Assembly (NCBI GenBank): GCA_030390025.1
Contig: CM059431.1
Coordinates: forward strand, 98,272,001-98,336,000
Direction: 5' to 3'
Length of the DNA stretch: 64,000 bases
DNA from: Squalus acanthias
Lineage: Eukaryota
The notes below the pieces were generated by a model. That model was not told the origin of the DNA. It searched no databases and saw nothing but the letters and a program-made list of their open reading frames with translations. Of this stretch, positions 42,001-64,000 are shown piece after piece. Each line of letters starts with the position of its first letter. The stretch's first letter is position 1. The position numbers were made by a program, and so were the translations under genes.

Positions 42001-45000
42001 TTCAGTGGGAGTCAGTAACTAGATTCTTCAGTGGGATTCAGTAACTAGGATCGTCAGTGGGAGTCAGTAACTAGATTCTTCAGTGGGAGTCAGTAACTAG
42101 ATTCTTCAGTGGTAGTCAGTAACGAGATTCTTCAGTGGGAGTCAATAACTAGGATCGTCAGTGGGAGTCAGTAACTAGAATCGTCAGTGGGAGTCAGTCA
42201 CTGGAATCTTCAGTGGGAGTCAGTAACTAGGATCGTCAGTGGGAGCCATAACTAGAATCGTCAGTGGGAGTCAGTAACTAGGATCGTCAGTGGGAGTCAT
42301 TAACTAGATTCTTCAGTGGGAGTCAATAACTAGATTCTTCAGTGGTAGTCAGTAACGAGCTTCTTCATTGGGAGTCAATAACTAGGATCGTCAGTGGGAG
42401 TCAGTAACTAGAATCGTCAGTGGCAGTCAGTAACTGGAATCTTCAGTGGGAGTCAGTAACTAGGATCGTCAGTGGGAGCCATAACTAGAATCGTCAGTGG
42501 GAGTCAGTAACTGGGATCGTCAGTGGGATTCTGTAACTAGAATCGTCAGTGGGAGTCAGTAACTAGAGTCGTCAGTGGGAGCCATAACTAGAATCGTCAG
42601 TGGGAGTCAGTAACTAGAGTCGTCAATGGGAGCCATAACTAGAATCGTCAGTGGGAGTCAGTAACTAGAATCGTCAGTGGGAGTCAGTAACTAGAATCGT
42701 GAGTGGGAGTCAGTAACTAGAGTCGTCAGTGGGAGCCATAACTAGAATCGTCAGTGGGAGTCAGTAACTGGAGTCGTCAGTGGGAGCCATAACTAGAATC
42801 ATCAGTGGGAGTCAGTAACTAGAGTCGTCAGTGGGAGCCATAACTAGAATCGTCAGTGGGAGTCAGTAACTAGGATCGTCAGTGGGAGTCAGTAACTAGA
42901 ATCGTCAGTGGGAGTCAGTAACTAGAATCGTCAGTGGGAGTCAGTAACTAGGATCGTCAGTGGGAGTCAGTAACTAGAATCGTCAGTGGGAGCCATAACT
43001 AGAATCTTCAGTGGGAGTCAGTAACTAGGATCGTCAGTGGGAGTCAGTAACTAGGATCGTCAGTGGGAGTCAGTAACTAGAATCGTCAGTGGGAGTAAGT
43101 AACTGGATTCTTCAGTAGGAATCAGGAGCTAGAATCGTCAGTGGGAGTCAGTAACTAGATTCTTCAGTAGGAGTCAGTAACTAGAATCGTCAGTGGGAGT
43201 CAGTAACTAGATTCTTCAGTGGGAGTCAGTAACTAGATTCTTCAGTAGGAGTCAGTAACTAGAATCGTCAGTGGGAGTCAGTAACTAGATTCTTCAGTAG
43301 GAGTCAGTAACTAGAATCGTCAGTGGGAGTCAGTAACTAGATTCTTCAGTAGGAGTAAGTAACTAGAATCGTCAGTGGGAGTCAGTAACTAGATTCTTCA
43401 GTAGGAGTCAGTAACTAGAATCGTCAGTGGGAGTCAGTAACTAGATTCTTCAGTAGGAGTCAGTAACTAGACTCGTCAGTGGGAGTCAGTAACTAGATTC
43501 TTCAGTAGGAGTCAGTAACTAGGATCGTCAGTGGGAGTCAGTAACTAGGATCGTCAGTGGGAGTCAGTAACTAGGATCGTCAGTGGAAGTCAGTAACGAG
43601 AATCGTCTGTGGTTTTCAGTAACTAGAATCGTCAGTGGGAGTCAGTAACTAGATTCTTCAGTGGGAGTCAGTAACTAGGATCGTCAGTGGGAGTCAGTAA
43701 CTAGGATCGTCAGTGGGAGTCAGTAACTAGATTCTTCAGTGGGAGTCAGTAACTAGGATCGTCAGTGGGAGTCAGTAACTAGATTCTTCAGTGGGAGTCA
43801 GTAACTAGGATCGTCAGTGGGTGTCAGTAACTAGAGTCGTCAGTGGGAGTCAGTAACTAGAATCGTCAGTGGGAGTCAGTAACTAGATTATTCAGTGGGA
43901 GTCAGTAACTAGATTCTTCAGTGGGAGTCAGTAACTAGATTCTTCAGTGGGAGTCAGTAACTAGATTCTTCAATGGGAGTCAGTAACTTGGATCATCAGT
44001 GAGAGTCAGTAACTAGGATCGTCAGTGGGAGTCAGTAACTAGGATCGTCAGTGGGAGTCAGTAACTAGATTCTTCAGTGGGAGTCAGTAACTAGGATCGT
44101 CAGTGGGAGTCAGTAACTAGGATCGTCAGTGGGAGTCAGTAACTAGAATCGTCAGTGGGAGTCAGTAACTAGGATCGTCAGTGGGAGTCAGTAACTAGAT
44201 TCTTCAGTGGGAGTCAGTAACTAGATTCTTCAGTGGGATTCAGTAACTAGGATCGTCAGTGGGAGTCAGTAACTAGAATCGTCAGTGGGAGTCAGTAACT
44301 AGGATCGTCAGTGGGAGTCAGTAACTAGATTCTTCAGTGAGAGTCAGTAACTAGATTCTTCAGTGGGAGTCAGTGACTAGATTCTTCAGTGGGAGTCAGT
44401 AACTAGATTCTTCAGTGGGAGTCAGTAACTAGATTCTTCAGTGGGATTCAGTAACTAGGATCGTCAGTGGGAGTCAGTAACTAGATTCTTCAGTGGGAGT
44501 CAGTAACTAGATTCTTCAGTGGTAGTCAGTAACGAGATTCTTCAGTGGGAGTCAATAACTAGGATCGTCAGTGGGAGTCAGTAACTAGAATCGTCAGTGG
44601 GAGTCAGTCACTGGAATCTTCAGTGGGAGTCAGTAACTAGGATCGTCAGTGGGAGCCATAACTAGAATCGTCAGTGGGAGTCAGTAACTAGGATCGTCAG
44701 TGGGAGTCATTAACTAGATTCTTCAGTGGGAGTCAATAACTAGATTCTTCAGTGGTAGTCAGTAACGAGCTTCTTCATTGGGAGTCAATAACTAGGATCG
44801 TCAGTGGGAGTCAGTAACTAGAATCGTCAGTGGCAGTCAGTAACTGGAATCTTCAGTGGGAGTCAGTAACTAGGATCGTCAGTGGGAGCCATAACTAGAA
44901 TCGTCAGTGGGAGTCAGTAACTGGGATCGTCAGTGGGATTCTGTAACTAGAATCGTCAGTGGGAGTCAGTAACTAGAGTCGTCAGTGGGAGCCATAACTA

Positions 45001-48000
45001 GAATCGTCAGTGGGAGTCAGTAACTAGAGTCGTCAATGGGAGCCATAACTAGAATCGTCAGTGGGAGTCAGTAACTAGAATCGTCAGTGGGAGTCAGTAA
45101 CTAGAATCGTGAGTGGGAGTCAGTAACTAGAGTCGTCAGTGGGAGCCATAACTAGAATCGTCAGTGGGAGTCAGTAACTGGAGTCGTCAGTGGGAGCCAT
45201 AACTAGCATCATCAGTGGGAGTCAGTAACTAGAGTCGTCAGTGGGAGCCATAACTAGAATCGTCAGTGGGAGTCAGTAACTAGGATCGTCAGTGGGAGTC
45301 AGTAACTAGAATCGTCAGTGGGAGTCAGTAACTAGAATCGTCAGTGGGAGTCAGTAACTAGGATCGTCAGTGGGAGTCAGTAACTAGAATCGTCAGTGGG
45401 AGCCATAACTAGAATCTTCAGTGGGAGTCAGTAACTAGGATCGTCAGTGGGAGTCAGTAACTAGGATCGTCAGTGGGAGTCAGTAACTAGAATCGTCAGT
45501 GGGAGTAAGTAACTGGATTCTTCAGTAGGAATCAGGAGCTAGAATCGTCAGTGGGAGTCAGTAACTAGATTCTTCAGTAGGAGTCAGTAACTAGAATCGT
45601 CAGTGGGAGTCAGTAACTAGATTCTTCAGTGGGAGTCAGTAACTAGATTCTTCAGTAGGAGTCAGTAACTAGAATCGTCAGTGGGAGTCAGTAACTAGAT
45701 TCTTCAGTAGGAGTCAGTAACTAGAATCGTCAGTGGGAGTCAGTAACTAGATTCTTCAGTAGGAGTAAGTAACTAGAATCGTCAGTGGGAGTCAGTAACT
45801 AGATTCTTCAGTAGGAGTCAGTAACTAGAATCGTCAGTGGGAGTCAGTAACTAGATTCTTCAGTAGGAGTCAGTAACTAGACTCGTCAGTGGGAGTCAGT
45901 AACTAGATTCTTCAGTAGGAGTCAGTAACTAGGATCGTCAGTGGGAGTCAGTAACTAGGATCGTCAGTGGGAGTCAGTAACTAGGATCGTCAGTGGAAGT
46001 CAGTAACGAGAATCGTCTGTGGTTTTCAGTAACTAGAATCGTCAGTGGGAGTCAGTAACTAGATTCTTCAGTGGGAGTCAGTAACTAGGATCGTCAGTGG
46101 GAGTCAGTAACTAGGATCGTCAGTGGGAGTCAGTAACTAGATTCTTCAGTGGGAGTCAGTAACTAGGATCGTCAGTGGGAGTCAGTAACTAGATTCTTCA
46201 GTGGGAGTCAGTAACTAGGATCGTCAGTGGGTGTCAGTAACTAGAGTCGTCAGTGGGAGTCAGTAACTAGAATCGTCAGTGGGAGTCAGTAACTAGGATC
46301 GTCAGTGGGAGTCAGTAACTAGGATCGTCAGTGGGAGTCAGTAACTAGAATCGTCAGTGGGAGTCAGTAACTAGTATCGTCAGTGGGAGTCAGTAACTAG
46401 AATCGTCAGTGGGAGTCAGTAACTAGAGTCGTCAGTGGGAGTCAGTAACTAGTATCGTCAGTGGGAGTCAGTAACTAGAATCGTCAGTGGGATTCAGTAA
46501 CTAGTATCGTCAGTGGGAGTCAGTAACTAGAGTCGTCAGTGGGAGTCAGTAACTAGTATCATCAGTGGGAGTCAGTAACTAGGATCGTCAGTGGGAGTCA
46601 GTAACTAGATTCTTCAGTGGGATTCAGTAACTAGTATCGTCAGTGGGAGTCAGTAACTAGAATCGTCAGTGGGAGTCAGTAACTAGTATCGTCAGTGGGA
46701 GTCAGTAACTAGAATCGTCAGTGGGAGTCAGTAACTAGATTCTTCAGTGGGAGTCAGTAACTAGTATCGTCAGTGGGAGTCAGTAACTGGAATCGTCAGT
46801 GGGAGTCAGTAACTAGAATCGTCAGTGGGAGTCAGTAACTAGAATCGTCAGTGGGAGTCAGTAACTAGGATCATCAGTGGGAGTCAGTAACTAGAATCAT
46901 CAGTGGGAGTCAGTAACTAGAGTCGTCAGTGGGAGTCAGTAACTAGATTCTTCAGTGGGAGTCAGTAACTAGGATCGTCAGTGGGAGTCAGTAACTAGGA
47001 TCGTCAGTGGGAGTCAGTAACTAGGATCGTCAGTGGGAGTCAGTTACTAGAGTCGTCAGTGGGAGCCATAACTAGAATCATCAGTGGGAGTCAGTAACTA
47101 GAGTTGTCAGTGAGAGTTAGTAACTAGATTCGTCAGCGGGAGTCAGTAACTAGGATCGTCAGTGGGAGTCAGTAACTAGAATCATCAGTGGCAGTCAGTA
47201 ACTAGAGTCGTCAGTGGGAGTCAGTAACTAGATTCTTCAGTGAGAGTCAGTAACTAGAGTCGTCAGTGGGAGTCAGTAACTAGAATCGTCAGTGGGAGTC
47301 AGTAACTAGGATCGTCAGTGGGAGTCAGTAACTAGAATCATCAGAGGGAGTCAGTAACTAGGATCGTCAGTGGGAGTCAGTAACTAGGATCGTCAGTGGG
47401 AGTCAGTAACTAGAATCGTCAGAGGGAGTCAGTAACTAGGATCGTCAGTGGGAGTCAGTAACTAGGATCGTCAGTGGGAGTCAGTAACTAGAGTCGTCAG
47501 TGAGAGTCAGTAACTAGATTCTTCAGTGGGAGTCAGTAACTAGGATCATCAGTGGGAGTCAGTATTAGAATCATCAGTGGGAGTCAGTAACTAGAATCGT
47601 CAGTGGGAGTCAGTAACTGGTATCGTCAGTGGGAGTCAGTAACTAGATTCTTCAGTGGGAGTCAGTAACTAGAATCGTCAGTGGGAGTCAGTAACTAGAA
47701 TCTTCAGTGGGAGTCAGTAACTAGGATCGTCAGTGGGAGTCAGTAACTAGATTCTTCAGTGGGAGTCAGTGACTAGATTCGTCAGTGGGAGTCAGTAACT
47801 AGAATCGTCAGTGGGAGTCAGTAACTAGATTCTTCAGTGGGAGTCAGTAACTAGAATCGTCAGTGGGAGTCAGTAACTAGAATCGTCAGTGGGAGTCAGT
47901 AACTAGAATCGTCAGTGGGAGTCAGTAACTAGATTCTTCAGTGAGAGTCAGTAACTAGGATCGTCAGTGGGAGTCAGTAACTAGAATAGTCAGTGGGAGT

Positions 48001-51000
48001 CAGTAACTAGGATCGTCAGTGGAAGTCAGTAACAAGGATCGTCAGTGGGAGTCAGTAACTAGGATCGTCAGTGGGAGTCAGTAACAAGGATCGTCAGTGG
48101 GAGTCAGTAACTAGGATAGTCAGTGGGAGTCAGTAACTAGATTCTTCAGTGGGAGTCAGCAACTAGATTCTTCAGTGGGAGTCAGTAACTAGATTCTTCA
48201 GTGGGAGTCAGCAACTAGATTCTTCAGTGGGAGTCAGTAACTAGATTCTTCAATGAGAGTCAGTAACTTGGATCATCAGTGGGAGTCAGTAACTAGAATC
48301 ACTAGTGGGAGTCAGTAACGAGAGTCGTCAGTGGGAGTCAGTTACTAGATTCTTCAGTGGGAGTCAGTAACTAGGATCGTCAGTGGGAGTCAGTAACTAG
48401 GATCGTCAGTGGGAGTCAGTAACAAGGATCGTCAGTGGGAGTCAGTAACTAGGATCGTCAGTGGGAGTCATTAACTAGATTTTTCAGTGGGAGTCGGTAA
48501 CTAGATTCTTCAGTGGGAGTCAGTAACTAGATTCTTCAATGGGAGTCAGTAACTTGGATCATCAGTGGTAGTCAGTAACAAGAATCACCAGTGGGAGTCA
48601 GTAACAAGAGTCATCAGTGGGAGTCAGTAACTAGATTCTTCAGTGGGAGTCAGTAACTAGGATCGTCAGTGGGAGTCAGTAACTAGAATCGTCAGTGGGA
48701 GTCAGTAACTAGGATCGTCAGTGGGAGTCAGTAACTAGGATCGTCAGTGAGAGTCAGTAACTGGGATCGTCAGTGGGAGTCAGTAACTAGGATCGTCAGT
48801 GGGAGTCACTAACTAGGATCGTCAGTGGGAGTCAGTAACTAGGATCGTCAGTGGGAGTCAGTAACTAGATTCTTCAGTGGGAGTCAGTAACTAGGATCGT
48901 CAGTGGGAGTCAGTCACTAAATTCTTCAGTGGGAGTCAGTAACTAGATTCTTCAGTGGTAGTCAGTAACTAGAGTCGTCAGTGGGAGTCAGTAACTAGAA
49001 TCGTCAGTGGGAGTCAGTAACTAGGATCGTCAGTGGGAGTCAGTAACTAGAATCATCAGAGGGAGTCAGTAACTAGGATCGTCAGTGGGAGTCAGTAACT
49101 AGGATCGTCAGTGGGAGTCAGTAACTAGAATCGTCAGAGGGAGTCAGTAACTAGGATCGTCAGTGGGAGTCAGTAACTAGGATCGTCAGTGGGAGTCAGT
49201 AACTAGAGTCGTCAGTGAGAGTCAGTAACTAGATTCTTCAGTGGGAGTCAGTAACTAGGATCATCAGTGGGAGTCAGTATTAGAATCATCAGTGGGAGTC
49301 AGTAACTAGAATCGTCAGTGGGAGTCAGTAACTGGTATCGTCAGTGGGAGTCAGTAACTAGATTCTTCAGTGGGAGTCAGTAACTAGAATCGTCAGTGGG
49401 AGTCAGTAACTAGAATCTTCAGTGGGAGTCAGTAACTAGGATCGTCAGTGGGAGTCAGTAACTAGATTCTTCAGTGGGAGTCAGTGACTAGATTCGTCAG
49501 TGGGAGTCAGTAACTAGAATCGTCAGTGGGAGTCAGTAACTAGATTCTTCAGTGGGAGTCAGTAACTAGAATCGTCAGTGGGAGTCAGTAACTAGAATCG
49601 TCAGTGGGAGTCAGTAACTAGAATCGTCAGTGGGAGTCAGTAACTAGATTCTTCAGTGAGAGTCAGTAACTAGGATCGTCAGTGGGAGTCAGTAACTAGA
49701 ATAGTCAGTGGGAGTCAGTAACTAGGATCGTCAGTGGAAGTCAGTAACAAGGATCGTCAGTGGGAGTCAGTAACTGGGATCGTCAGTGGGAGTCAGTAAC
49801 AAGGATCGTCAGTGGGAGTCAGTAACTAGGATAGTCAGTGGGAGTCAGTAACTAGATTCTTCAGTGGGAGTCAGCAACTAGATTCTTCAGTGGGAGTCAG
49901 TAACTAGATTCTTCAATGAGAGTCAGTAACTTGGATCATCAGTGGGAGTCAGTAACTAGAATCACTAGTGGGAGTCAGTAACGAGAGTCGTCAGTGGGAG
50001 TCAGTTACTAGATTCTTCAGTGGGAGTCAGTAACTAGGATCGTCAGTGGGAGTCAGTAACTAGGATCGTCAGTGGGAGTCAGTAACAAGGATCGTCAGTG
50101 GGAGTCAGTAACTAGGATCGTCAGTGGGAGTCATTAACTAGATTTTTCAGTGGGAGTCAGTAACTAGATTCTTCAGTGGGAGTCAGTAACTAGATTCTTC
50201 AATGGGAGTCAGTAACTTGGATCATCAGTGGTAGTCAGTAACAAGAATCACCAGTGGGAGTCAGTAACAAGAGTCGTCAGTGGGAGTCAGTAACTAGATT
50301 CTTCAGTGGGAGTCAGTAACTAGGATCGTCAGTGGGAGTCAGTAACTAGAATCGTCAGTGGGAGTCAGTAACTAGGATCGTCAGTGGGAGTCAGTAACTA
50401 GGATCGTCAGTGAGAGTCAGTAACTGGGATCGTCAGTGGGAGTCAGTAACTAGGATCGTCAGTGGGAGTCAGTAACTAGGATCGTCAGTGGGAGTCAGTA
50501 ACTAGGATCGTCAGTGGGAGTCAGTAACTAGATTCTTCAGTGGGAGTCAGTAACTAGATTCTTCAGTGGTAGTCAGTAACTAGATTCTTCAGTGGGAGTC
50601 AATAACTAGGATCGTCAGTGGGAGTCAGTAACTAGGATCGTCAGTGGGAGTCAGTAACTAGAGTCGTCAGTGGGAGTCAGTAACTAGAATCGTCAGTGGG
50701 AGTCAGTAACTAGAGTCGTCAGTGGGAGCTATAACTAGAATCGTCAATGGGAGTCAGTAACTAGAATCGTCAGTGGGAGTCAGTAACTAGAATCGTCAGT
50801 GGGAGTCAGTAACTAGGATCGTCAGTGGGAGTCAGTAACTAGAATCGTCAGAGGGAGTCAGTAACTAGAATCTTCACTTGGAGTCAGTAACTAGAATCGT
50901 CAGTGGGAGTCAGTAACTAGAGTCGTCAGTGGGAGTCAGTAACTAGAGTCGTCAGTGGGAGTCAGTAACTAGAATCGTCAGTGGGAATCAGTAACTAGAG

Positions 51001-54000
51001 TCGTCAGTGGGAGTCAGTAACTAGAATCGTCAGTGGGAGTCAGTAACTAGAATCGTCAGTGGGAGTCAGTAACTAGAATCGTCAGTGAGAGTCAGTAACT
51101 AGAATCTTCAGTGGGAGTCAGTAACTAGGATCGTCAGTGGGAGTCAGTAACTAGAATCGTCAGTGGGAGTCAGTAACTAGAATCTTCACTGGGAGTCAGT
51201 AACTAGATTCTTCAGTGGGAGTCAGTAACTAGGATCGTCAGTGGGAGTCAGTAACTAGGATCGTCAGTGGGAGTCAGTAACTAGAATCTTCAGTGGGAGT
51301 CAGTAACTAGAATCGTCAGTGGGAGTCAGTAACTAGGATCGTCAGTGGGAGTCAGTAACTAGAGTCGTCAGTGGGAGTCAGTAACTAGGATCGTCAGTGA
51401 GAGTCAGTAACTAGAATCGTCAGTGGGAGTCAGTAACTAGGATCGTCAGTGGGAGTCAGTAACTAGAATCGACAGTGGGAGTCAGTAACTAGAATCATCA
51501 GTGGGAGTCAGTAACTAGAATCGTCAGTGGGAGTCAGTAGGTAGAATCTTCAGTGGGAGTCAGTAACTAGAATCATCAGTGGGAGTCAGTAACTAGAATC
51601 GTCAGTGGGAGTCAGGAGGTAGAATCTTCAGTGGGAGTCAGTAACTAGGATCGTCAGCGGGAGTCAGTAACTAGGATCGTCAGTGCGAGTCAGTAACTAC
51701 GATCGTCAGTGGGAGTCAGTAAGTAGAATCGTCAGTGGGAGTCAGTAACTAGATTCTTCAGTAGGAGTCAGTAACTAGAATCGTCAGTGGGAGTCAGTAA
51801 CTAGATTCTTCAGTCGGAGTCAGTAACTAGAATCCTCAGTGGGAGTCAGTAACTAGATTCTTCAGTGGGAGTCAGTAACTAGGATCGTCAGTGGGAGTCA
51901 GTAACTAGGATCGTCAGTGGGAGTCAGTAACTAGGATCGTCAGTGGGAGTCAGTAACTAGATTCTTCAGTGGGAGTCAGTAACTAGAATCGTCAGAGGGA
52001 GTCAGTGACTAGGATCGTCAGTGGAAGTCAGTAACTAGAGTCGTCAGTGCGAGTCAGTAACTAGGATCATCAGTGGGAGTCAGTAACTAGAATCATCAGT
52101 GGGAGTCAGTAACCAGAGTCGTCAGTGGGAGTCAGTAACTAGATTCTTCAGTGGGAGTCAGTAACTAGAATCATCAGTGGGAGTCAGTAACTAGGATCGT
52201 CAGTGGGAGTCAGTAACTAGGATCGTCAGTGGGAGTCAGTAACTAGGATCGTCAGTGAGAGTCAGTAACTGGGATCGTCAGTGGGAGTCAGTAACTAGGA
52301 TCGTCAGTGGGAGTCAGTAACTAGGATCGTCAGTGGGAGTCAGTAACTAGGATCGTCAGTGGGAGTCAGTAACTAGATTCTTCAGTGGGAGTCAGTAACT
52401 AGGATCGTCAGTGAGAGTCAGTAACTAAATTCTTCAGTGGGAGTCAGTAACTAGAATCGTCAGTGGGAGTCAGTAACTATAGTCGTCAGTGGGAGCTATA
52501 ACTAGAATCGTCAATGGGAGTCAGTAACTAGAATCGTCAGTGGGAGGCAGTAACTAGAATCGTCAGTGGGAGTCAGTAACTAGGATCGTCAGTGGGAGTC
52601 AGTAACTAGAATCGTCAGAGGGAGTCAGTAACTAGAATCTTCACTTGGAGTCAGTAACTAGAATCGTCAGTGGGAGTCAGTAACTAGAGTCGTCAGTGGG
52701 AGTCAGTAACTAGAGTCGTCAGTGGGAATCAGTAACTAGAGTCGTCAGTGGGAGTCAGTAACTAGAATCGTCAGTGGGAGTCAGTAACTAGAATCGTCAG
52801 TGGGAGTCAGTAACTAGAATCGTCAGTGAGAGTCAGTAACTAGAATCTTCAGTGGGAGTCAGTAACTAGGATCGTCAGTGGGAGTCAGTAACTAGAATCG
52901 TCAGTGGGAGTCAGTAACTAGAATCGTCACTGGGAGTCAGTAACTAGATTCTTCAGTGGGAGTCAGTAACTAGGATCGTCAGTGGGAGTCAGTAACTAGG
53001 ATCGTCAGTGGGAGTCAGTAACTAGAATCTTCAGTGGGAGTCAGTAACTAGAATCGTCAGTGGGAGTCAGTAACTAGGATCGTCAGTGGGAGTCAGTAAC
53101 TAGAGTCGTCAGTGGGAGTCAGTAACTAGGATCGTCAGTGAGAGTCAGTAACTAGAATCGTCAGTGGGAGTCAGTAACTAGGATCGTCAGTGGGAGTCAG
53201 TAACTAGAATCGTCAGTGGGAGTCAGTAACTAGAATCATCAGTGGGAGTCAGTAACTAGAATCGTCAGTGGGAGTCAGTAGGTAGAATCTTCAGTGGGAG
53301 TCAGTAACTAGGATCGTCAGCGGGAGTCAGTAACTAGGATCGTCAGTGCGAGTCAGTAACTACGATCGTCAGTGGGAGTCAGTAAGTAGAATCGTCAGTG
53401 GGAGTCAGTAACTAGATTCTTCAGTAGGAGTCAGTAACTAGAATCGTCAGTGGGAGTCAGTAACTAGATTCTTCAGTCGGAGTCAGTAACTAGAATCCTC
53501 AGTGGGAGTCAGTAACTAGATTCTTCAGTGGGAGTCAGTAACTAGGATCGTCAGTGGGAGTCAGTAACTAGGATCGTCAGTGGGAGTCAGTAACTAGGAT
53601 CGTCAGTGGGAGTCAGTAACTAGATTCTTCAGTGGGAGTCAGTAACTAGAATCGTCAGAGGGAGTCAGTGACTAGGATCGTCAGTGGAAGTCAGTAACTA
53701 GAGTCGTCAGTGAGAGTCAGTAACTAGGATCGTCAGTGGGAGTCAGTAACTAGGATCGTCAGTGGGAGTCAGTAACTTGAGTCGTCAGTGAGAGTCAGTA
53801 ACTAGATTCTTCAGTGGGAGTCAGTAACTAGGATCATCAGTGGGAGTCAGTAACTAGAATCATCAGTGGGAGTCAGTAACCAGAGTCGTCAGTGGGAGTC
53901 AGTAACTAGATTCTTCAGTGGGAGTCAGTAACTAGAATCGTCAGTGGGAGTCAGTAACTAGGATCGTCAGTGGGAGTCAGTAACTAGGATCGTCAGTGGG

Positions 54001-57000
54001 AGTCAGTAACTAGGATCGTCAGTGGGAGTCAGTAACTAGAATCGTCAGTGGGAGTCAGTAACTAGATTCTTCAGTGGGAGTCAGTAACTAGAATCGTCAG
54101 TGGGAGTCAGTAACTAGGAACTTCAGTGGGAGTCAGTAACTAGAATCGTCAGTGGGAGTCAGTAACTAGATTCTTCAGTGGGAGTCAGTAACTAGATTCT
54201 TCAGTGGGAGTCAGTAACTAGATTCTTCAGTGGGAGTCAGTAACTAGATTCTTCAGTGGGAGTCAATAACTAGAATCGTCAGTGGGAGTCAGGAACTAGA
54301 ATCGTCAGTGGGAGTCAGTAACTAGAATCGTCAGTGGGAGTCAGTAACTAGATTCTTCAGTGGGAGTCAGTAACTAGATTCTTCGGTGGGAGTCAGTAAC
54401 TAGATTCTTCGGTGGGAGTCAGTAACTAGATTATTCAGTGGGAGTCAGTAACTAGATTCTTCAGTGGGAGTCAGTAACTAGAATCGTCAGTGGGAGTCAG
54501 TAACTAGGATCGTCAGTGGGAGTCAGTAACTAGGATCGTCAGTGGGAGTCAGTAACTAGATTCTTCAGTGGGAGTCAGTAACTAGATTCTTCGGTGGGAG
54601 TCAGTAACTAGATTATTCAGTGGGAGTCAGTAACTAGATTCTTCAGTGGGAGTCAGTAACTAGAATCGTCAGTGGGAGTCAGTAACTAGGATCGTCAGTG
54701 GGAGTCAGTAACTAGATTCTTCAGTGGGAGTCAGTAACTAGAATCGTCAGTGGGAGTCAGTAACTGGAATCGTCAGTGGGAGTCAGTAACTAGATTCTTC
54801 AGTGGGAGTCAGTAACTAGGATCGTCAGTGGGAGTCAGTAACTAGAATCGTCAGTGGGAGTCAGTAACTAGATTCTTCAGTGAGAGTCAGTAACTAGGAA
54901 CGTCAGTGGGAGTCAGTAACTAGAATCGTCAGTGGGAGTCAGTAACTAGGATCGTCAGTGGGAGTCAGTAACAAGGATCGTCAGTGGGAGTCAGTAACTA
55001 GGATCGTCAGTGGGAGTCAGTAACTAGATTATTCAGTGGGAGTCAGTAACTAGATTCTTCAGTGGGAGTCAGTAACTAGATTCTTCAGTGGGAGTCAGTC
55101 ACTAGATTCTTCAATGGGAGTCAGTAACTTGGATCATCAGTGAGAGTCAGTAACTAGGATCGTCAGTGGGAGTCAGTAACTAGATTCTTCAGTGGGAGTC
55201 AGTAACTTGGATCGTCAGTGGGAGTCAGTAACTAGGATCGTCAGTGGGAGTCAGTAACTAGAATCGTCAGTGGGAGTCAGTAACTAGGATCGTCAGTGGG
55301 AGTCAGTAACTAGATTCTTCAGTGGGAGTCAGTGACTAGATTCTTCAGTGGGAGTCAGTAACTAGATTCTTCAGTGGGAGTCAGTAACTAGATTCTTCAG
55401 TGGGAGTCAGTAACTAGGATCGTCAGTGGGAGTCAGTAACTAGATTCTTCAGTGGGAGTCAGTAACTAGATTCTTCAGTGGTAGTCAGTAACGAGATTCT
55501 TCAGTGGGAGTCAATAACTAGGATCGTCAGTGGGAGTCAGTAACTAGAATCGTCAGTGGGAGTCAGTAACTGGAATCTTCAGTGGGAGTCAGTAACTAGG
55601 ATCGTCAGTGGGAGCCATAACTAGAATCGTCAGTGGGATTCAGTAACTAGGATCGTCAGTGGGAGTCATTAACTAGATTCTTCAGTGGGAGTCAATAACT
55701 AGATTCTTCAGTGGTAGTCAGTAACGAGCTTCTTCATTGGGAGTCAATAACTAGGATCGTCAGTGGGAGTCAGTAACTAGAATCGTCAGTGGCAGTCAGT
55801 AACTGGAATCTTCAGTGGGAGTCAGTAACTAGGATCGTCAGTGGGAGCCATAACTAGAATCGTCAGTGGGAGTCAGTAACTAGGATCGTCAGTGGGATTC
55901 TGTAACTAGAATCGTCAGTGGGAGTCAGTAACTAGAGTCGTCAATGGGAGCCATAACTAGAATCGTCAGTGGGAGTCAGTAACTAGATTCTTCAGTAGGA
56001 ATCAGGAGCTAGAATCGTCAGTGGGAGTCAGTAACTAGATTCTTCAGTAGGAGTCAGTAACTAGAATCATCAGTGGGAGTCAGTAACTAGATTCTTCAGT
56101 GGGAGTCAGTAACTAGATTCTTCAGTAGGAGTCAGTAACTAGAATCGTCAGTGGGAGTCAGTAACTAGATTCTTCAGTAGGAGTAAGTAACTAGAATCGT
56201 CAGTGGGAGTCAGTAACTAGATTCTTCAGTAGGAGTCAGTAACTAGAATCGTCAGTGGGAGTCAGTAACTAGATTCTTCAGTAGGAGTCAGTAACTAGAC
56301 TCGTCAGTGGGAGTCAGTAACTAGATTCTTCAGTAGGAGTCAGTAACTAGGATCGTCAGTGGGAGTCAGTAACTGGGATCGTCAGTGGGAGTCAGTAACT
56401 AGGATCGTCAGTGGAAGTCAGTAACTAGAATCGTCTGTGGTTTTCAGTAACTAGAATCGTCAGTGGGAGTCAGTAACTAGATTCTTCAGTGGGAGTCAGT
56501 AACTAGGATCGTCAGTAGGCGTCTGTAACTAGAATCGTCAGTGGGAGTCAGTAACAGGATCGTCAGTGGGAGTCAGTAACTAGATTCTTCAGTGGGAGTC
56601 AGTAACTTGGATCGTCAGTGGGAGTCAGTAACTAGATTCTTCAGTGGGAGTCAGTAACTAGGATCGTCAGTGGGTGTCAGTAACTAGAGTCGTCAGTGGG
56701 AGTCAGTAACTAGAATCGTCAGTGGGAGTCAGTAACTAGGATCGTCAGTGGGAGTCAGTAACTAGGATCGTCAGTGGGAGTCAGTAACTAGAATCGTCAG
56801 TGGGAGTCAGTAACTAGTATCGTCAGTGGGAGTCAGTAACTAGAATCGTCAGTGGGAGTCAGTAACTAGAGTCGTCAGTGGGAGTCAGTAACTAGTATCG
56901 TCAGTGGGAGTCAGTAACTAGAATCGTCAGTGGGATTCAGTAACTAGTGTCGTCAGTGGGAGTCAGTAACTAGAGTCGTCAGTGGGAGTCAGTAACTAGT

Positions 57001-60000
57001 ATCGTCAGTGGGAGTCAGTAACTAGGATCGTCAGTGGGAGTCAGTAACTAGATTCTTCAGTGGGATTCAGTAACTAGTATCGTCAGTGGGAGTCAGTAAC
57101 TAGAATCGTCAGTGGGAGTCAGTAACTAGTATCGTCAGTGGGAGTCAGTAACGAGAATCGTCAGTGGGAGTCAGTAACTAGATTCTTCAGTGGGAGTCAG
57201 TAACTAGTATCGTCAGTGGGAGTCAGTAACTGGAATCGTCAGTGGGAGTCAGTAACTAGAATCGTCAGTGGGAGTCAGTAACTAGAATCGTCAGTGGGAG
57301 TCAGTAACTAGGATCATCAGTGGGAGTCAGTAACTAGAATCATCAGTGGGAGTCAGTAACTAGAGTCGTCAGTGGGAGTCAGTAACTAGATTCTTCAGTG
57401 GGAGTCAGTAACTAGGATCGTCAGTGGGAGTCAGTAACTAGGATCGTCAGTGGGAGTCAGTAACTAGAGTCGTCAGTGGGAGCCATAACTAGAATCATCA
57501 GTGGGAGTCAGTAACTAGAGTCGTCAGTGAGAGTCAGTAACTAGATTCGTCAGCGGGAGTCAGTAACTAGGATCGTCAGTGGGAGTCAGTAACTAGAATC
57601 ATCAGTGGCAGTCAGTAACTAGAGTCGTCAGTGGGAGTCAGTAACTAGATTCTTCAGTGAGAGTCAGTAACTAGAGTCGTCAGTGGGAGTCAGTAACTAG
57701 AATCGTCAGTGGGAGTCAGTAACTAGGATCGTCAGTGGGAGTCAGTAACTAGAATCATCAGAGGGAGTCAGTAACTAGGATCGTCAGTGGGAGTCAGTAA
57801 CTAGGATCGTCAGTGGGAGTCAGTAACTAGAATCGTCAGAGGGAGTCAGTAACTAGGATCGTCAGTGGGAGTCAGTAACTAGGATCGTCAGTGGGAGTCA
57901 GTAACTAGAGTCGTCAGTGAGAGTCAGTAACTAGATTCTTCAGTGGGAGTCAGTAACTCGGATCATCAGTGGGAGTCAGTATTAGAATCATCAGTGGGAG
58001 TCAGTAACTAGAATCGTCAGTGGGAGTCAGTAACTAGTATCGTCAGTGGGAGTCAGTAACTAGAATCGTCAGTGGGAGTCAGTAACTAGATTCTTCAGTG
58101 GGAGTCGGTAACTAGTATCGTCAGTGGGAGTCAGTAACTGGAATCGTCAGTGGGAGTCAATAACTAGAATCGTCAGTGGGAGTCAGTAACTAGAATCGTC
58201 AGTGGGAGTCAGTAACTAGGATCATCAGTGGGAGTCAGTACCTAGAATCATCAGTGGGAGTCAGTAACTAGAGTCGTCAGTGGGAGTCAGTAACTAGATT
58301 CTTCAGTGGGAGTCAGTAACTAGAGTCGTCAGTGAGAGTCAGTAACTAGATTCGTCAGCGTGAGTCAGTAACTAGGATCGTCAGTGGGAGTCAGTAACTA
58401 GAGTCGTCAGTGGGAGTCAGTAACTAGATTCTTCAGTGAGAGTCAGTACCTAGAGTCGTCAGTGGGAGTCAGTAACTAGAATCGTCAGTGGGAGTCAGTA
58501 ACTAGGATCGTCAGTGGGAGTCAGTAACTAGAATCGTCAGAGGGAGTCAGTAACTAGGATCGTCAGTGGGAGTCAGTAACTAGGATCGTCAGTGGGAGTC
58601 AGTAACTAGAATCGTCAGAGGGAGTCAGTAACTAGGATCGTCAGTGGGAGTCAGTAACTAGGATCATCAGTGGGAGTCAGTAACTAGGATCGTCAGTGAG
58701 AGTCAGTAACTAGATTCTTCAGTGGGATTCAGTAACTAGGATCATCAGTGGGAGTCAGTATTAGAATCATCAGTGGGAGTCAGTAACTAGAGTCGTCATT
58801 GGGAGTCAGTAACTAGATTCTTCAGTGGGAGTCAGTAACTAGGATCGTCAGTGGGAGTCAGTAACTAGGATCGTCAGTGGGAGTCAGTAACTAGGATCGT
58901 CAGTGGGAGTCAGTAACTAGAATCGTCAGTGGGAGTCAGTAACTAGGATCGTCAGTGGGAGTCAGTAACTAGAATCGTCAGTGGGAGTCAGTAACTAGAT
59001 TCTTCAGTGGGAGTCAGTAACTAGGATCGTCAGTGGGAGTCAGTAACTAGAGTCGTCAGTGGGAGTCAGTAACTAGATTCTTCAGTGGTCGTCAGTGACT
59101 AGATTCTTCAGTGGGAGTCAATAACTAGGATCGTCAGTGGGAGTCAGTAACTAGAATCGTCAGTGGGAGTCAGTAACTAGAATCGTCAGTGGGAGTCAGT
59201 AACTAGGATCATCAGTGGGAGTCAGTAACTAGGATCGTCAGTGGAAGTCAGTAACTAGAATCGTCTGTGGTTTTCAGTAACTAGAATCGTCAGTGGGAGT
59301 CAGTAACTAGAATCGTCAGTGGGAGTCAGTAACTAGGATCGTCAGTGAGAGTCAGTAACTAGGATCGTCAGTGGGAGTCAGTAACTAGAATCGTCAGTGG
59401 GAGTCAGTAACTAGAATCGTCAGTGGGAGTCAGTAACTAGGATCGTCAGTAGGAGTCAGTAACTAGAATCGTCAGTGAGAGTCAGTAACTAGGATCGTCA
59501 GTGGGAGTCAGTAACTAGAATCGTCAGTGGGAGTCAGTAACTAGGATCGTCAGTGGGAGTCAGTAACTGGGATCGTCAGTGGGAGTCAGTAACTAGGATC
59601 GTCATTGGGAGTCAGTAACTGGAATCGTCAGTGGGAGTCAGTAACTAGGATCGTCAGTGGGAGTCAGTAACTAGGATCGTCAGTGCGAATCAGTAACTAG
59701 GATCGTCAGTGGGAGTCAGTAACTAGAATCGTCAGTGGGAGTCAGTAACTAGGATCGTCAGTGGGAGTCAGTAACTAGAATCGTCAGTGGGAGTCAGTAA
59801 CTAGGATCGTCAGTGGGAGTCAGTAACTAGAATCGTCAGTGGGAGTCAGTAACTAGAATCGTCAGTGGGAGTCAGTAACTAGAATCGTCAGTGGGAGTCA
59901 GTAACTATAATCGTCAGTGGGAGTCAGTAACTAGGATCCTCAGTGGGAGTCAGTAACCAGGATCCTCAGTGGGAGTCAGTAACTAGGATCGTCAGTGGGA

Positions 60001-60104
60001 GTCAGTAACTAGAATCGTCAGTGGGAGTCAGTAACTAGGATCCTCAGTGAGAGTCAGTAACTAGGATCCTCAGTGGGTGTCAGTAACCAGGATCCTCAGT
60101 GGGA
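1..60104. repeat. 26-bp tandem satellite array, ~2,300 copies, open at the left edge of the window
   Basis: Unit CAGTGGGAGTCAGTAACTAG+(AATCGT|GATCGT|ATTCTT|AGTCGT|AATCTT|TATCGT). CAGTGGG recurs every 26 nt (e.g. 151, 177), with occasional 25-nt units. All units I read have the same orientation. The array ends at ...GGATCCTCAGTGGGA (60104). TAA/TAG on + and TAG/TGA on -, with a period not divisible by 3, close all frames, matching the empty ORF track. Confidence 0.99.
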
Positions 60105-60188
60105 TGGCCTCTCCTTATCCTCATTTCCCTGCACGATGGAGACACCATCGGCCTGAAACCAACCAGCTGACAATAGGCATCTTTATTT

Positions 60189-62806
60189 GTGGGGAGCTTT
60201 GTTGGTAAAGGATGGGATCAGTGCAGTGGTGAGAAGTGATATTGGCTCTGAAGATCAAGATGTAGAATCGGTTTGGGTGGAGATAATAAATAATAAAGGG
60301 AAAAAGTCTCTGGTGGGCCTAGTCTACAGGCACCCGAACAGTAGCAATACTGTTGGACAGAGTATAAATCAACAAATAATGGAGGCCTGTAAAAAAGGTA
60401 CGGTAATAATCATGGGTGATTTTAATCTATATTGATTGGACAAATCAAATTGGCCATGGTAGTCTTGAGGAGGAGTTCATAGAGTGCATCCGGGATGGTT
60501 TCCTAGAACAGTATGTGATGGAACCAACCAGGGAGCAGGCTATCTTGGATCTGGTACTATGTAATGAGACAGAATTAATAAATGATCTCATAGTAAAGGA
60601 TCCTGTAGGAAAGAGTGATCATAGCATGGTTGGGTTTCAAATTCAGTTGGAGGGTGAGAAAGTTGTATCTCAAACCAGTGTCCTGATCTTAAACAAAGGC
60701 AATTACAGTGGCATGAGGGCAGAACTGGCTAAAGTGGACTGGAAAATTAAATAAATGGGTAAGACAGTTGAAATGCAGTGGTGGATATTTAAGGAGATAT
60801 TTCATAACTCTCAACAAAAATATATTCCAGTGAGAAAGAAAGATTTTAAGAGAAAGGAGCACCATCCGTGGCTAACTAAGGAAGTAAAGGATGGTATCAA
60901 ATTGAAAACGAAGGCATACAATGTTGCCAAGATTAGTGGGAGGCCAGAGGATTGGGAAATTTTTTAAACCAGCAAAGGATGACTAAAAAAATAATAAAGA
61001 GAGAGAAGATGAATTATGAGAGTAAACTGGCAAGAAACATTAAAACAGATAGTAAGAGCTTCTACAAGTATATAAAAAGGAAGAGGGTAGCTAAAGTAAA
61101 TGTTGGTCCCTTAGAGGATGAGACTGGGGAATTAATAATGGGGAACGGGGAAATGGCAGAAACTCTGAACAAATATTTTGTATCTGCCTTCACGGTAGAA
61201 GACACTAACAACATCCCAATAATGGATAATCAAGGGGCCACAGGGAGGGGGGAACTAAAGATAATCACTATCACTAAGGAAATAGTACTTGGTAAAATAA
61301 TGGGACTAAAAGATGACAAGTCCCCTGGACCAGATGGCCTGCATCCCAGGGTCTTAAAAGAAGTGGCTGCAGAGATAGTGGATGCATTGGTTGTAATCTG
61401 CCAAAATTCCCTGGGCTCTGGAGATGTCCCAGCAGATTGGAAAACTGCAAATGTAACACCCCTTTTTAAGAAAGGAGGGAGACAGAAAGCAGGAAACTAT
61501 AGACCAGTTAGCCTAACATCTGTCGTTGGGAAAATGCTGGAGTCCTTCATTACGGAAGCAGTAGCACGGCATTTGGAAAATCATAATGCAGTCAAGCAGA
61601 GTCAGCATGGTTTTATGAAAGGGAAATCATGTTTAACAAACTTGCTGGAGTTCTTGGAGGAGGTAACGAGCAGGGTGGACAAAGGTGAGCCAGTGGATGT
61701 GGTGTATTTGGATTTCCAGAAGGCATTCGATAAGGTGTCACATAAAAGGTTACTGCATAAGATAAGAGCTCACGGAATTGGCGGTAATATATTAGCATGG
61801 ATAGAGAGTTGGCTAACTAACAGAAAGCAGAGAGTCGGGATAAATGGGTCATTTTCCGGTTGGCAAACGGTAACTAGTGGGGTGCCACAGGGATCGGTGC
61901 TGGGGCCCCAACTATTTACAATCTACATTAATGACTTGGATGAAGGGACCGAGTGTAATGTAGCCAAGTTTGCGGATGATACAAAGATGGGTGGGAAAAC
62001 AAGCTGTGCAGAGGACTCAAAGAACCTGCAAAGGGATATAGACAAGCTAAGTGAATGGGCAAACATTTGGCAGATGGAGTATAATGTGGGAAAGTGCGAG
62101 GTTATACACTTTGGCCGGAAAAATAAAAAAGCAAATTATTATTTAAATGGAGAGAGATTACAAAATGCTACAGTTCAGAGGGACCTGGGGGTCCTTGTGC
62201 ATGAAACACAAAAAGTTAGCATGCAGGTACAGCAAGTAATCAAAAAGGCAAATGGAATGTTGGCCTTTATTTCAAAGGGGTTGGAGTATAAAAGCAGGGA
62301 AGTCCTGCTACAACTGTACAGGGTATTGGTGAGACCACACCTTGAGTACTGCGTACAGTTTTGGTCTCCTTATTTAAGGAGGGATATACTTGCATTGGAG
62401 GCAGTTCAGAGATGATTCACTAGGCTAATTCCAAAGATGAGGGGTTTGACTTATGAGGTAAGGTTGAGCAGGCTGGGCCTATACTCATTGGAATTTAGAA
62501 GAATGAGAGGTGATCGTATTGAAACATATAAGATACTGAGGGGGCACGACAAGGTAGATGCAGAGAGGATGTTTCCCCTCATGGGGAAATCTAGAACGCG
62601 GGGGCACAGTTTTAGAATAAAGGGTCGCCCTTTTAGAACTGAGATGAGGGGGAGTATCTTCTCTCAGAGGGTCGTAAATCTGTGGAATTCTCTGCCCCAG
62701 AGCTGTGGAGGCTGGGTCATTAAATACATTTAAGGTGGAGATAGACAAATTTTTGCAAGATAAGGGAATGAAGGGTTATGGGGAGCGGGCAGGGAAGTAG
62801 CTTTGA
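60189..62806 (+). pseudogene. Disrupted CR1 ORF2 (endonuclease-reverse transcriptase)
   Basis: ORF-track pieces 60187-60435, 60416-60754, 60755-60967, 60952-62415 and 62437-62733 join into one protein. Lesions: frameshift near 60430 (FNL/IDW), in-frame TAA 60752-60754, frameshift at the T6 run 60960-60965, in-frame TGA 62413-62415 (QR*FTRLIP), and frameshift near 62701. After the last, another frame reads AVEAGSLNTFKVEIDKFLQDKGMKGYGERAGK to TAG 62798-62800, with TGA at 62804-62806. Confidence 0.93.
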
Positions 62807-62838
62807 GCCCTAGATCAGCCATGATCTTATTGAATGGC

Positions 62839-62877
62839 GGAGCAGGCTCGAGGGGCCAAGTGGCCTATTCCTGCTCC
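62839..62877 (+). other. CR1 3'-UTR stem-loop
   Basis: GGAGCAGG (62839-62846) pairs with CCTGCTCC (62870-62877), enclosing an inner GGCC-AAGT-GGCC hairpin (62854-62865). It lies just before the tail repeats. Confidence 0.8.
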
Positions 62878-62880
62878 TAT

Positions 62881-62903
62881 TTCTTATGTTCTTATGTTCT
62901 TAT
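62881..62903 (+). repeat. CR1 3' terminal microsatellite (TTCTTATG)x~3
   Basis: TTCTTATG TTCTTATG TTCTTAT read directly. Confidence 0.92.
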
Positions 62904-62956
62904 TTCTCCACCAGCCCCAATTGCACAGTCAGTTTGGTTGCTTCGCTAACATCAAA

Positions 62957-63120
62957 GACATAAAAGATCCCACGACACTATTGAAGGAAGAGAAGGGAGC
63001 TCTCCCCGGTGTCCTGGGGCCAATAATGAGCCAATGACCAATTTCATTAAAACCGATTACCTGGTCATTTATCACATTGCTGTTTGTGACACTTTGGGAC
63101 AGTTTAGAAATGTGTCTTTC
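62957..63120 (+). mobile_element. Decayed DeuSINE-like fragment (Deu domain; SacSINE1/AmnSINE1-related)
   Basis: Blocks GACATAAAAGATCCCA..CACTATT, CTCCCCGGTGTCCTGG..CCAATA and GATTACCTGGTCATTTATCACATTGCTGTTTGTG resemble the Deu-domain consensus as I recall it, followed by tail-like remnants CTTTGGGAC and AAATG..TCTTTC. Recognised from memory, not aligned. No tRNA-derived head is seen. Confidence 0.72.
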
Positions 63121-63209
63121 ATTTTGTTTGTGAGGCCAGCAGGGACACAAATGTTCCTCCTGGCCCCACAAAAATCTTGTGGCCCAATTTTGTGCTCCCT
63201 CCATCACTG

Positions 63210-63232
63210 CCCCCCCGCCCCCCCCCACCCCC
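63210..63232. repeat. Low-complexity poly-C tract (C7-G-C9-A-C5)
   Basis: Read directly; G-rich on the minus strand. Confidence 0.85.
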
Positions 63233-63540
63233 TGCTCCTTTTACACATACTTCGTTCTTCAGCTCTGCTGGATTCCCCAACCCCTCCCCTTCTTTTCAGA
63301 CTTAGTAAACATGGGAAATCTTCTGCCTGTGTTTACTATGGGGTAAATGTTCTAACCCCGTGCTCCTGGCATAGAGTTATCCCCGGGGAGCGCACATTGG
63401 GAAATAGTGGGCTGCATGTGTAAGGGGTCCCAATGTGTACTGTCAACGAACAAGGCTCTGCATCTGGAACACACAGCAGGAAAGTTTACCCCTACACTGT
63501 TAACCCATAGTGATCAGAGGGAGTCTTCCTTCTACACTTA

Positions 63541-64000
63541 GAGCACTGTGCACAGTTCTGGTCTCCATATACCTTGGTTAGACCCTCCTTGGAGCACTGT
63601 GCACAGTCCTGGTCTCCATATACCTTGGTTAGACCCTCCTTGGAGCACTGTGCACAGTCCTGGTCTCCATATACCTTGGTTAGACCCTCCTTGGAGCACT
63701 GTGCACAGTCCTGGTCTCCATATACCTTGGTTAGACCCTCCTTGGAGCACTGTGCACAGTCCTGGTCTCCATATACCTTGGTTAGACCCTCCTTGGAGCA
63801 CTGTGCACAGTCCTGGTCTCCATATACCTTGGTTAGACCCTCCTTGGAGCACTGTGCACAGTCCTGGTCTCCATATACCTTGGTTAGACCCTCCTTGGAG
63901 CACTGTGCACAGTCCTGGTCTCCATATACCTTGGTTAGACCCTCCTTGGAGCACTGTGCACAGTCCTGGTCTCCATATACCTTGGTTAGACCCTCCTTGG
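63541..64000. repeat. 51-bp minisatellite, 9 copies in the window, open at the right edge; unit homologous to CR1 ORF2
   Basis: Unit GAGCACTGTGCACAGTCCTGGTCTCCATATACCTTGGTTAGACCCTCCTTG starts at 63541, 63592 and so on. Copies 2-9 appear identical and copy 1 has TTCTGG for TCCTGG. The + strand reads LVRPSLEHCAQSWSPYT. Confidence 0.98.

What the first reader, a model, noticed from the sequence alone, without database searches (positions are those of the whole stretch)
63535..64000. 51-bp minisatellite is an amplified 17-codon slice of CR1 ORF2
Seen: the unit phased as TTG GTT AGA CCC TCC TTG GAG CAC TGT GCA CAG TCC TGG TCT CCA TAT (ACC) aligns without gaps to the LINE at 62326-62373 (TTG GTG AGA CCA CAC CTT GAG TAC TGC GTA CAG TTT TGG TCT CCT TAT). 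By hand count this is 36/48 nt and 12/16 aa (LVRPSLEHCAQSWSPY vs LVRPHLEYCVQFWSPY), in the same orientation. Inference: 25% divergence, several differences synonymous, points to a different CR1 subfamily as donor rather than the neighbouring copy. This looks like a tandem repeat born from LINE coding sequence. The ORF track misses this frame and shows only the antisense one.
Basis: partly seen in the sequence, partly recalled or inferred. Interest (0 to 1): 0.7.

Follow-up and report, generated by a model that had tools for sequence, protein, structure and literature searches.

The report
Minisatellite cut from shark CR1 LINE
A 51-base tandem repeat is a copied slice of the reverse-transcriptase gene of a very common jumping gene of sharks and their kin; similar repeats of the same slice occur elsewhere in this and related species, so it is a clear but ordinary case of a jumping gene giving rise to repeat DNA.

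Summary
Observation confirmed. Eight identical 51-bp units plus partial ends match the neighbouring LINE at 36/48 nt and 12/16 aa; the best of 200 shuffles reaches 30/48.

The donor is a different, very abundant CR1-type family. In public contigs of 4 of 4 runs (three organisms), the slice continues on both sides as in-frame ORF2, and the unit matches that family at 47/51 (counted by hand). The partial first unit keeps the ancestral letters, so the eight identical units were amplified later from one mutated unit.

The duplication is not unique to this locus. 16 of 32 listed contig pieces bridge the same 51-bp junction with other variants, and a 38-bp unit with the same 3' breakpoint occurs in all four runs. 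The 17-codon frame looks like chance.

Transposon-derived minisatellites, including CR1 ORF2 ones, are known. This scan noted two other LINE-born arrays in this genome (e1-7790172, e1-7857509). Still open: the right end of the array, whether the family arose once or repeatedly, and why the 3' breakpoint looks fixed.

The parts
63571..63978 (+). Eight identical 51-bp units; each is a slice of LINE ORF2 downstream of the RT core with 4 derived substitutions against the donor family (unit 1: 63585-63587, 63608)
   Evidence: donor letters tables 3 and 7
63979..64000 (+). Ninth unit, cut by the window end
63534..63570 (+). Partial first unit, the 5' tip of the LINE-derived sequence; keeps the ancestral His and Phe codons and has one private change (63540)
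   Evidence: depth rises from about 9 to over 1e6 here, and loose ends on both sides read as ORF2
63570..63571 (+). Tandem junction: 3' breakpoint after the Pro-Tyr codons, jump back 51 nt. The same 3' breakpoint is used by a 38-bp unit elsewhere
   Evidence: tables 5, 5c, 8
63545..63556 (.). 12-bp perfect palindrome, present once per unit (9 copies)
   Evidence: 67 of 5000 shuffled units have one this long or longer
63100..63533 (.). Mostly single-copy spacer (a mid-copy patch at about 63125-63250); orthologous in a second organism
   Evidence: table 2 and table 8 records 1, 11, 19
62950..63099 (.). High-copy interspersed repeat fragments between the LINE and the spacer; SINE-like (label recalled, not tested)
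   Evidence: depth 1e4-9e5 in most bins and loose ends at 63049 and 63088
62323..62373 (+). Homologous slice in the neighbouring LINE (a paralogue, not the parent)
60157..62903 (+). Neighbouring 5'-truncated CR1-type LINE: endonuclease remnant, RT, C-terminal ORF2, 3' UTR, 2.9 copies of an octamer at 62881-62903; ORF2 broken into several frames; 5' boundary approximate
   Evidence: (PF00078 E 1e-32; PF14529 below its cut-off)
1..60104 (.). 26-bp satellite (context only; not derived from the neighbouring LINE)
   Evidence: best 16/26, reached or exceeded by 198 of 200 shuffles

Best explanation
The array is a non-coding minisatellite whose unit is 51 nt of ORF2 from a very abundant cartilaginous-fish CR1-type family other than the neighbouring copy (shown). 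A piece of that family, 5'-truncated at 63534, inserted here (inferred). It either already carried the 51-nt duplication or acquired it at a duplication-prone site, because the same junction occurs in other copies in three organisms (junction shown; single versus repeated origin open). After insertion one unit picked up 4 substitutions and was copied to at least 8 identical units by DNA-level slippage, unequal exchange or conversion, while the edge unit kept the old letters (pattern shown; mechanism inferred from general minisatellite behaviour). The 12-bp palindrome may help neighbouring units mispair (weak). No function is indicated.
For: 4 of 4 runs: loose ends before 63534 (249-402 contigs per run) and behind 63570 (102-150 per run) translate in frame to ORF2 residues that line up with bird, turtle and cartilaginous-fish RT proteins. 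At 63585-63587, 89-99% of the depth carries the ancestral letters. Unit versus this family 47/51 by hand, versus neighbour 36/48. Depth at 63567 is 1.1e6-4.6e6 against 8.6-15.7 on the single-copy flank (order of magnitude only). 16 of the 32 pieces listed (32,693 not shown) have at least 31 letters on both sides of the junction: X17 6, X3 4, X5 1, X8 5. Fifteen are ungapped, and each has 9-16 other letters, so they are not this array. Control: the non-tandem neighbour scores 11/52 past the junction. X8 has no depth on most of the unique flank yet holds the junction at depth up to 697. The edge unit differs from the full units at 5 of 37 sites, 4 of them ancestral.
Against: The right end of the array is outside the window and no genome is held, so no downstream CR1 remainder, 3' tail or target-site duplication was seen. 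The donor is known only from 30-letter loose-end consensuses of moderate agreement (0.56-0.75 for the ends cited); that both ends belong to the same elements is inferred. None of the 126 proteins held matches the donor's slice exactly; nearly all have Tyr where it has His. The joints have no shared letters on both sides ('both' = 0 in 14 of the 15 rows shown), which does not fit simple slippage at a short direct repeat as the first step. A single unit folds no better than shuffles (z +0.3 to -0.8).
Confidence: 0.75

Rival explanations
1. The tandem units are made during insertion. The CR1 reverse transcriptase, near the point where it falls off, jumps back repeatedly onto one fixed RNA position or RNA 3' end (just after the Pro-Tyr codons). 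This gives arrays with a constant 3' breakpoint and variable unit length (51, about 50, 38) at the 5' tips of truncated copies. Later DNA turnover homogenises them.
For: The array sits at the 5' tip of the LINE-derived piece. Both main unit classes share the 3' breakpoint 63570 and show no microhomology (tables 5, 5c). R2 proteins make longer products by template jumping, and head-to-tail tandem junctions were seen in cells (PMC11371274, passages). CR1 reverse transcription is described as having low processivity (PMC4316615, passage).
Against: The four substitutions shared by all eight full units and absent from the edge unit need post-insertion DNA amplification anyway. The view is narrow: only joints with both sides inside about 90 nt are visible, and 24 joint rows were not shown. 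The 38-bp unit could be a deletion derivative of the 51-bp one. I found no report of template jumping for CR1 (one search lists mostly R2 work).
Confidence: 0.12
2. A purely local event: an ordinary donor-family fragment at this locus duplicated 51 nt once by replication slippage (for example a 54-nt slip at a 3-nt TAT microhomology followed by a 3-nt loss), unrelated to other arrays.
For: The unit's four derived substitutions are rare in the runs (at most 1-2% of depth at 63586-63587), so this variant of the array is locus-specific or nearly so. The donor ends show TAT on both sides of the slice (table 7). This is the Haber and Louis model as described in PMC6947457 (passage).
Against: The same 51-nt register recurs in at least 16 other contig pieces of three organisms. 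An identical slip plus identical deletion arising independently many times is unlikely. No 54-bp unit was seen, but the 5% share filter could hide it.
Confidence: 0.08
3. The unit was copied from the neighbouring LINE at 62323-62373 and then diverged.
For: Same strand, 1.2 kb apart, 36/48 nt.
Against: A far better donor exists (47/51). The edge unit matches that family at 36 of 37 and the neighbour at 30 of 37.
Confidence: 0.01
4. The array is a coding repeat: an exapted LINE slice translated as a 17-residue repeat protein.
For: The unit length is a multiple of 3 and the ORF2 frame stays open from 63514 to the window end.
Against: There is no Met in the frame. Four open frames occur in 276 of 2000 shuffles. 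Three of the four derived substitutions fall in codons that change residue (His to Ser, Phe to Ser). 38-bp relatives break the frame. No protein with this repeat was found at meaningful identity: 6 weak hits among 8000 candidates scored, none of 2 candidates, and 54 hits at 21-55% identity, mostly unrelated repeats of similar period. RNA was not examined.
Confidence: 0.03

Closest known systems
Transposon-derived human mini/satellites (Ahmed and Liang 2012, PMC3389668; abstract, outline and sections 3.3-3.4 read)
   Same: A slice of a TE copy expanded locally in tandem. The paper reports 7,276 such arrays (23% of minisatellites/satellites), hotspot regions in AluS and LTR12, dispersal of a pre-existing repeat by transposition, and that only 6% fit known initiation models.
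   Different: Here the TE is a cartilaginous-fish CR1-type LINE and the slice is ORF2 coding sequence. One 3' breakpoint seems shared by units of different length.
Chicken HinfI (SCR1) repeat and CR1-C-related centromeric repeats; PROsat and Pvc20 from LINE-1 ORF2 (seen only as entries in reviews PMC9659126 and PMC6947457, passages)
   Same: Tandem repeats that contain LINE ORF2 sequence, CR1 included.
   Different: In HinfI a CR1 piece (3' UTR plus part of ORF2) is embedded in the repeat unit. Here the whole unit is 51 nt of ORF2 and nothing else. The primary papers were not read.
Other LINE-born arrays noted by this scan in the same genome (e1-7790172, 49-bp unit at the CR1 ORF2 stop; e1-7857509, 28-bp unit from an L2 RT motif)
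   Same: Short slices of LINE coding sequence amplified in tandem in the same genome.
   Different: They come from different slices and are far longer (14 and 60 kb). They are AI notes that I did not check.

Membership tests
TE-derived minisatellite | Head-to-tail units of 10-100 bp | tested here: met
   Period 51, 9.1 copies, 99% matches
TE-derived minisatellite | Unit matches a TE family better than chance and better than other sources | tested here: met
   36/48 versus null maximum 30; 47/51 to the high-copy family; no Rfam match; no exact match in viral or metagenome contigs
TE-derived minisatellite | Array embedded in, or flanked by, the parent TE copy | tested here: inconclusive
   The left edge is a 37-nt parent-like piece that abuts unique DNA; the right edge is outside the window and no genome is held
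CR1 clade (neighbouring LINE) | ORF2 with endonuclease and RT domains | tested here: met
   PF00078 E 1e-32; PF14529 and PF03372 fragments below their curated cut-offs; feature as in PMC4316615
CR1 clade (neighbouring LINE) | 3' end with an octamer microsatellite, and 5' truncation | tested here: met
   2.9 octamer copies at 62881-62903; the element starts inside the endonuclease region. PMC4316615 states this feature for amniote CR1
CR1 clade (neighbouring LINE) | RT phylogeny inside the CR1 clade against L2 and other references | not tested
   No tree was built and no named CR1 or L2 references are held. Nearest named hits are chimaera, skate, ray and shark proteins (63-78%), then bird and turtle proteins (43-59%)
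CR1 clade (donor family) | In-frame ORF2 context like that of CR1 | tested here: met
   Thirty letters on each side read in frame and line up without gaps with the neighbour and with bird and turtle RT proteins
CR1 clade (donor family) | Match to a named Dfam or Repbase subfamily; full structure with 3' octamer tail | not testable with these tools
Haber-Louis type initiation | 5-10 bp direct repeats flanking the unit in the parent | tested here: not met
   'both' = 0 in 14 of the 15 joints shown (1 in the other); at most a 3-nt TAT that would give a 54-nt unit; model as described in PMC6947457

The most novel reading that the evidence does not exclude
One fixed position in ORF2 of an abundant shark CR1 family is a recurrent birthplace of minisatellites. 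The element's own reverse transcriptase jumps back again and again to the same RNA landing site without homology, and so seeds head-to-tail arrays of 51, about 50 and 38 bp at the 5' tips of insertions across several species. That would be a retrotransposition-coupled route to minisatellites, one candidate for the roughly 94% of TE-derived tandem repeats whose initiation is unexplained, and it can be tested by counting breakpoints in any shark assembly.
Probability: 0.12. Interest if true: 0.6.

Novelty: new member of a known kind. Interest (0 to 1): 0.22.

Why it matters
As it stands it is one more well-preserved example of a LINE giving rise to a tandem repeat, with the ancestral edge unit still attached; it also serves as a possible length-variable marker. 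It would matter more if the fixed 3' breakpoint holds genome-wide. Thousands of copies of one LINE family in several species would then form a natural experiment on how TE-derived minisatellites start, which PMC3389668 calls largely unexplained.

Tried and rejected
No whole genome was held, so the array could not be extended to the right and loci could not be counted.

Exact-pattern scans found 0 matches in metagenome contigs and viral contigs. Rfam gave 0 matches at E up to 1. Pfam hits on the array's frames had no significant single stretch in the sense frame and were treated as artefacts of repetition. The PDB sequence search with the ORF2 C-terminal part found 0.

Hairpin-driven origin is not supported for the single unit and weak for the doubled unit. 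The tool's z of -3.46 falls to 20 of 1000 with the fair control, shuffled units doubled. The neighbour's homologous slice ranks 244 and 71 of 2650 windows on the two strands.

Whether the orthologous locus in organism F already has the tandem junction is undecided: its contig ends 3 letters past the junction (record 1).

Of 19 runs listed, 4 were laid.

P0001 (period about 17, a similar short motif) is treated as chance from a repetitive query. P0155 and P0139 are unrelated LINE-like ORFs with tandem copies of the same ORF2 motif. They were picked out by a query made of that motif, so they are not evidence of a hotspot.

An origin of the 26-bp satellite from the neighbouring LINE was rejected.

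Earlier scan notes by sequence, by words, near and in relatives gave nothing.

Eight paper searches listed no paper on this shark repeat. The passages read in three elasmobranch genome papers (10.1101/443036, PMC10620051, 10.1101/2025.06.08.657570) do not describe it. No supplements were read; repeat libraries in them may hold it, and most subscription papers are outside the library.

Full report
Setting. The window is 60.1 kb of a 26-bp satellite, then a 5'-truncated LINE at about 60.2-62.9 kb, a short spacer, and the 51-bp array running off the right end. The LINE has endonuclease remnants and an RT domain (PF00078, E 1e-32) and ends in 2.9 copies of an octamer at 62881-62903. Those are the CR1 features given for amniotes in PMC4316615 (passages). 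Its nearest named relatives are proteins of chimaera, skates, rays and sharks at 63-78% identity, then birds and turtles. The host is therefore most likely a cartilaginous fish (inference). CR1-like LINEs are abundant in the whale shark (10.1101/443036, passages). No RT tree against named CR1 and L2 references was built.

Observation. Confirmed. Eight identical 51-bp units start at 63571, a ninth is cut at 64000, and a 37-nt partial unit lies at 63534-63570. The unit matches 62326-62373 at 36/48 nt and 12/16 aa with no gaps; 5 of the 9 differing codons are synonymous. The best of 200 shuffles reaches 30/48. The amino-acid match is not specific: among 126 proteins held, a distant LINE-like protein matches the unit at 13/17 and another fragment at 15/17, against 12/17 for the neighbour.

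Donor. I laid contigs of 4 of the 19 runs listed on 62900-63625: two samples of the window's organism (X3, X5) and two other organisms (X17, X8). Summed depth jumps from 9-16 on the single-copy flank to over a million on the slice. The tool warns that this is no copy number, so I use it only as an order of magnitude. In all four runs the loose ends before 63534 and behind 63570 read in frame as ORF2, differ from the neighbour, and line up with the CR1-like proteins. At 63585-63587, 89-99% of the depth carries other letters than the array, the same letters as the window's partial first unit. Counting by hand from tables 3 and 7, the unit matches this family at 47/51 and the partial unit at 36/37. 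Limits: the donor is seen only through 30-letter consensuses with agreement 0.56-0.75, and no protein that I fetched matches its slice exactly; nearly all have Tyr where it has His.

History at this locus. The edge unit differs from the full units at 5 of 37 sites. Four are ancestral letters that the full units lost, and one is private. All eight full units share the four derived changes, so one mutated unit was amplified or homogenised after insertion by a DNA-level process (mechanism inferred). The insertion point is shared with organism F: one 497-letter contig covers 63060-63573 with 24 other letters and 17 gap letters. It ends 3 letters past the junction, so whether F has the tandem is undecided. 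The X5 contig leaves the window at 63515 with 35 unplaced letters, so that sample has a different allele there (only about 55% of that run was read). The array itself was not confirmed in reads, because the contigs break in repeats.

The duplication is not unique. Of 32 pieces listed (32,693 not shown), 16 have at least 31 letters on both sides of the 63570|63571 junction: X17 6, X3 4, X5 1, X8 5. Fifteen are ungapped, and all carry 9-16 other letters, so they are other tandems of period 51. X8 lacks most of the unique flank but holds such pieces at depth up to 697. All four runs also show a jump from 63570 back to 63534 with one letter between, which is a 38-bp unit (7-14 contigs per run). 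Among the 15 joints shown (24 not shown), those that mark a true breakpoint end at the same 3' position, and 14 have no shared letters. This view is narrow, since both sides of a joint must lie within about 90 nt of the stretch laid, and the 38-bp unit may derive from the 51-bp one.

Mechanism. Best reading (0.75): a donor-family fragment that carried or acquired the 51-nt duplication inserted here, and the array then grew and homogenised by slippage, unequal exchange or conversion. The first step is not explained by the short-direct-repeat model as described in PMC6947457 (passage). A structural trigger is weak: a single unit folds no better than shuffles, and the doubled unit is matched or beaten by 20 of 1000 shuffled-and-doubled controls. 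That signal probably comes from a 12-bp palindrome, a length seen in 67 of 5000 shuffles. The boldest reading that the data allow (0.12) is repeated homology-free jumping of the reverse transcriptase to a fixed RNA position during insertion. Template jumping and head-to-tail products are reported for R2 proteins (PMC11371274 and PMC2718515, passages); I saw no such report for CR1. A coding role is unlikely. The frame has no Met, four open frames occur in 276 of 2000 shuffles, and no real homologue of the repeat peptide turned up. RNA was not examined.

Comparison with what is known. TE-derived tandem repeats are common: 23% of human mini/satellites, with hotspots in some elements, dispersal by transposition, and only 6% explained by existing initiation models (PMC3389668, abstract and sections 3.3-3.4). 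CR1- and LINE-1-ORF2-derived satellites are tabulated in two reviews (PMC9659126, PMC6947457, passages); I did not read the primary papers. This scan noted two other LINE-born arrays in the same genome (unchecked notes). Eight paper searches listed nothing on this particular repeat. The passages read in two further elasmobranch genome papers (PMC10620051; 10.1101/2025.06.08.657570) treat tandem repeats only in bulk. Supplements and repeat libraries were not seen and may hold it.

Verdict. Real, correctly read, and a new member of a known kind. Interest 0.22. The one open point of value is the apparently fixed 3' breakpoint shared by units of different length across species, which a genome-wide breakpoint count would settle.

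Noticed in passing
window 1-60104: The 26-bp satellite (2314 copies, 90% matches) has long exact internal repeats at spacings such as 2392, 2777, 3378 and 9510 bp. These are segmental duplications within the array, with no single higher-order period.
   Followed up: partly
window 63515-63533: A second sample of the same organism (X5) leaves the window's sequence at 63515, 19 bases before the LINE piece, with 35 unplaced letters; X3 and organism F follow the window. It is a probable structural polymorphism at the array's left edge.
   Followed up: no
window 62950-63099: High-copy repeat fragments with an internal rearrangement relative to the family (loose ends at 63049 and 63088, a joint 62992 to 63061). 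They look like a cartilaginous-fish Deu-type SINE piece; that label is recalled and not tested.
   Followed up: no
P0155 residues 85-139 and P0139 (unnamed ENA proteins): Two unrelated LINE-like ORFs carry tandem copies of the same ORF2 motif, with periods of 15 and 61 residues. They were selected by the query, so they hint at most that this motif is often duplicated.
   Followed up: partly
window 63543-63545 and homologous codon in each unit: The abundant donor family has His where nearly all ORF2 proteins fetched have Tyr. It may be a lineage trait, or a sign that the high-copy family is a derived, non-coding offshoot.
   Followed up: no
window 60105-60200: About 100 bp of unassigned sequence separates the satellite's end from the start of recognisable ORF2; the last satellite units carry a variant (60040-60104).
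   Followed up: no
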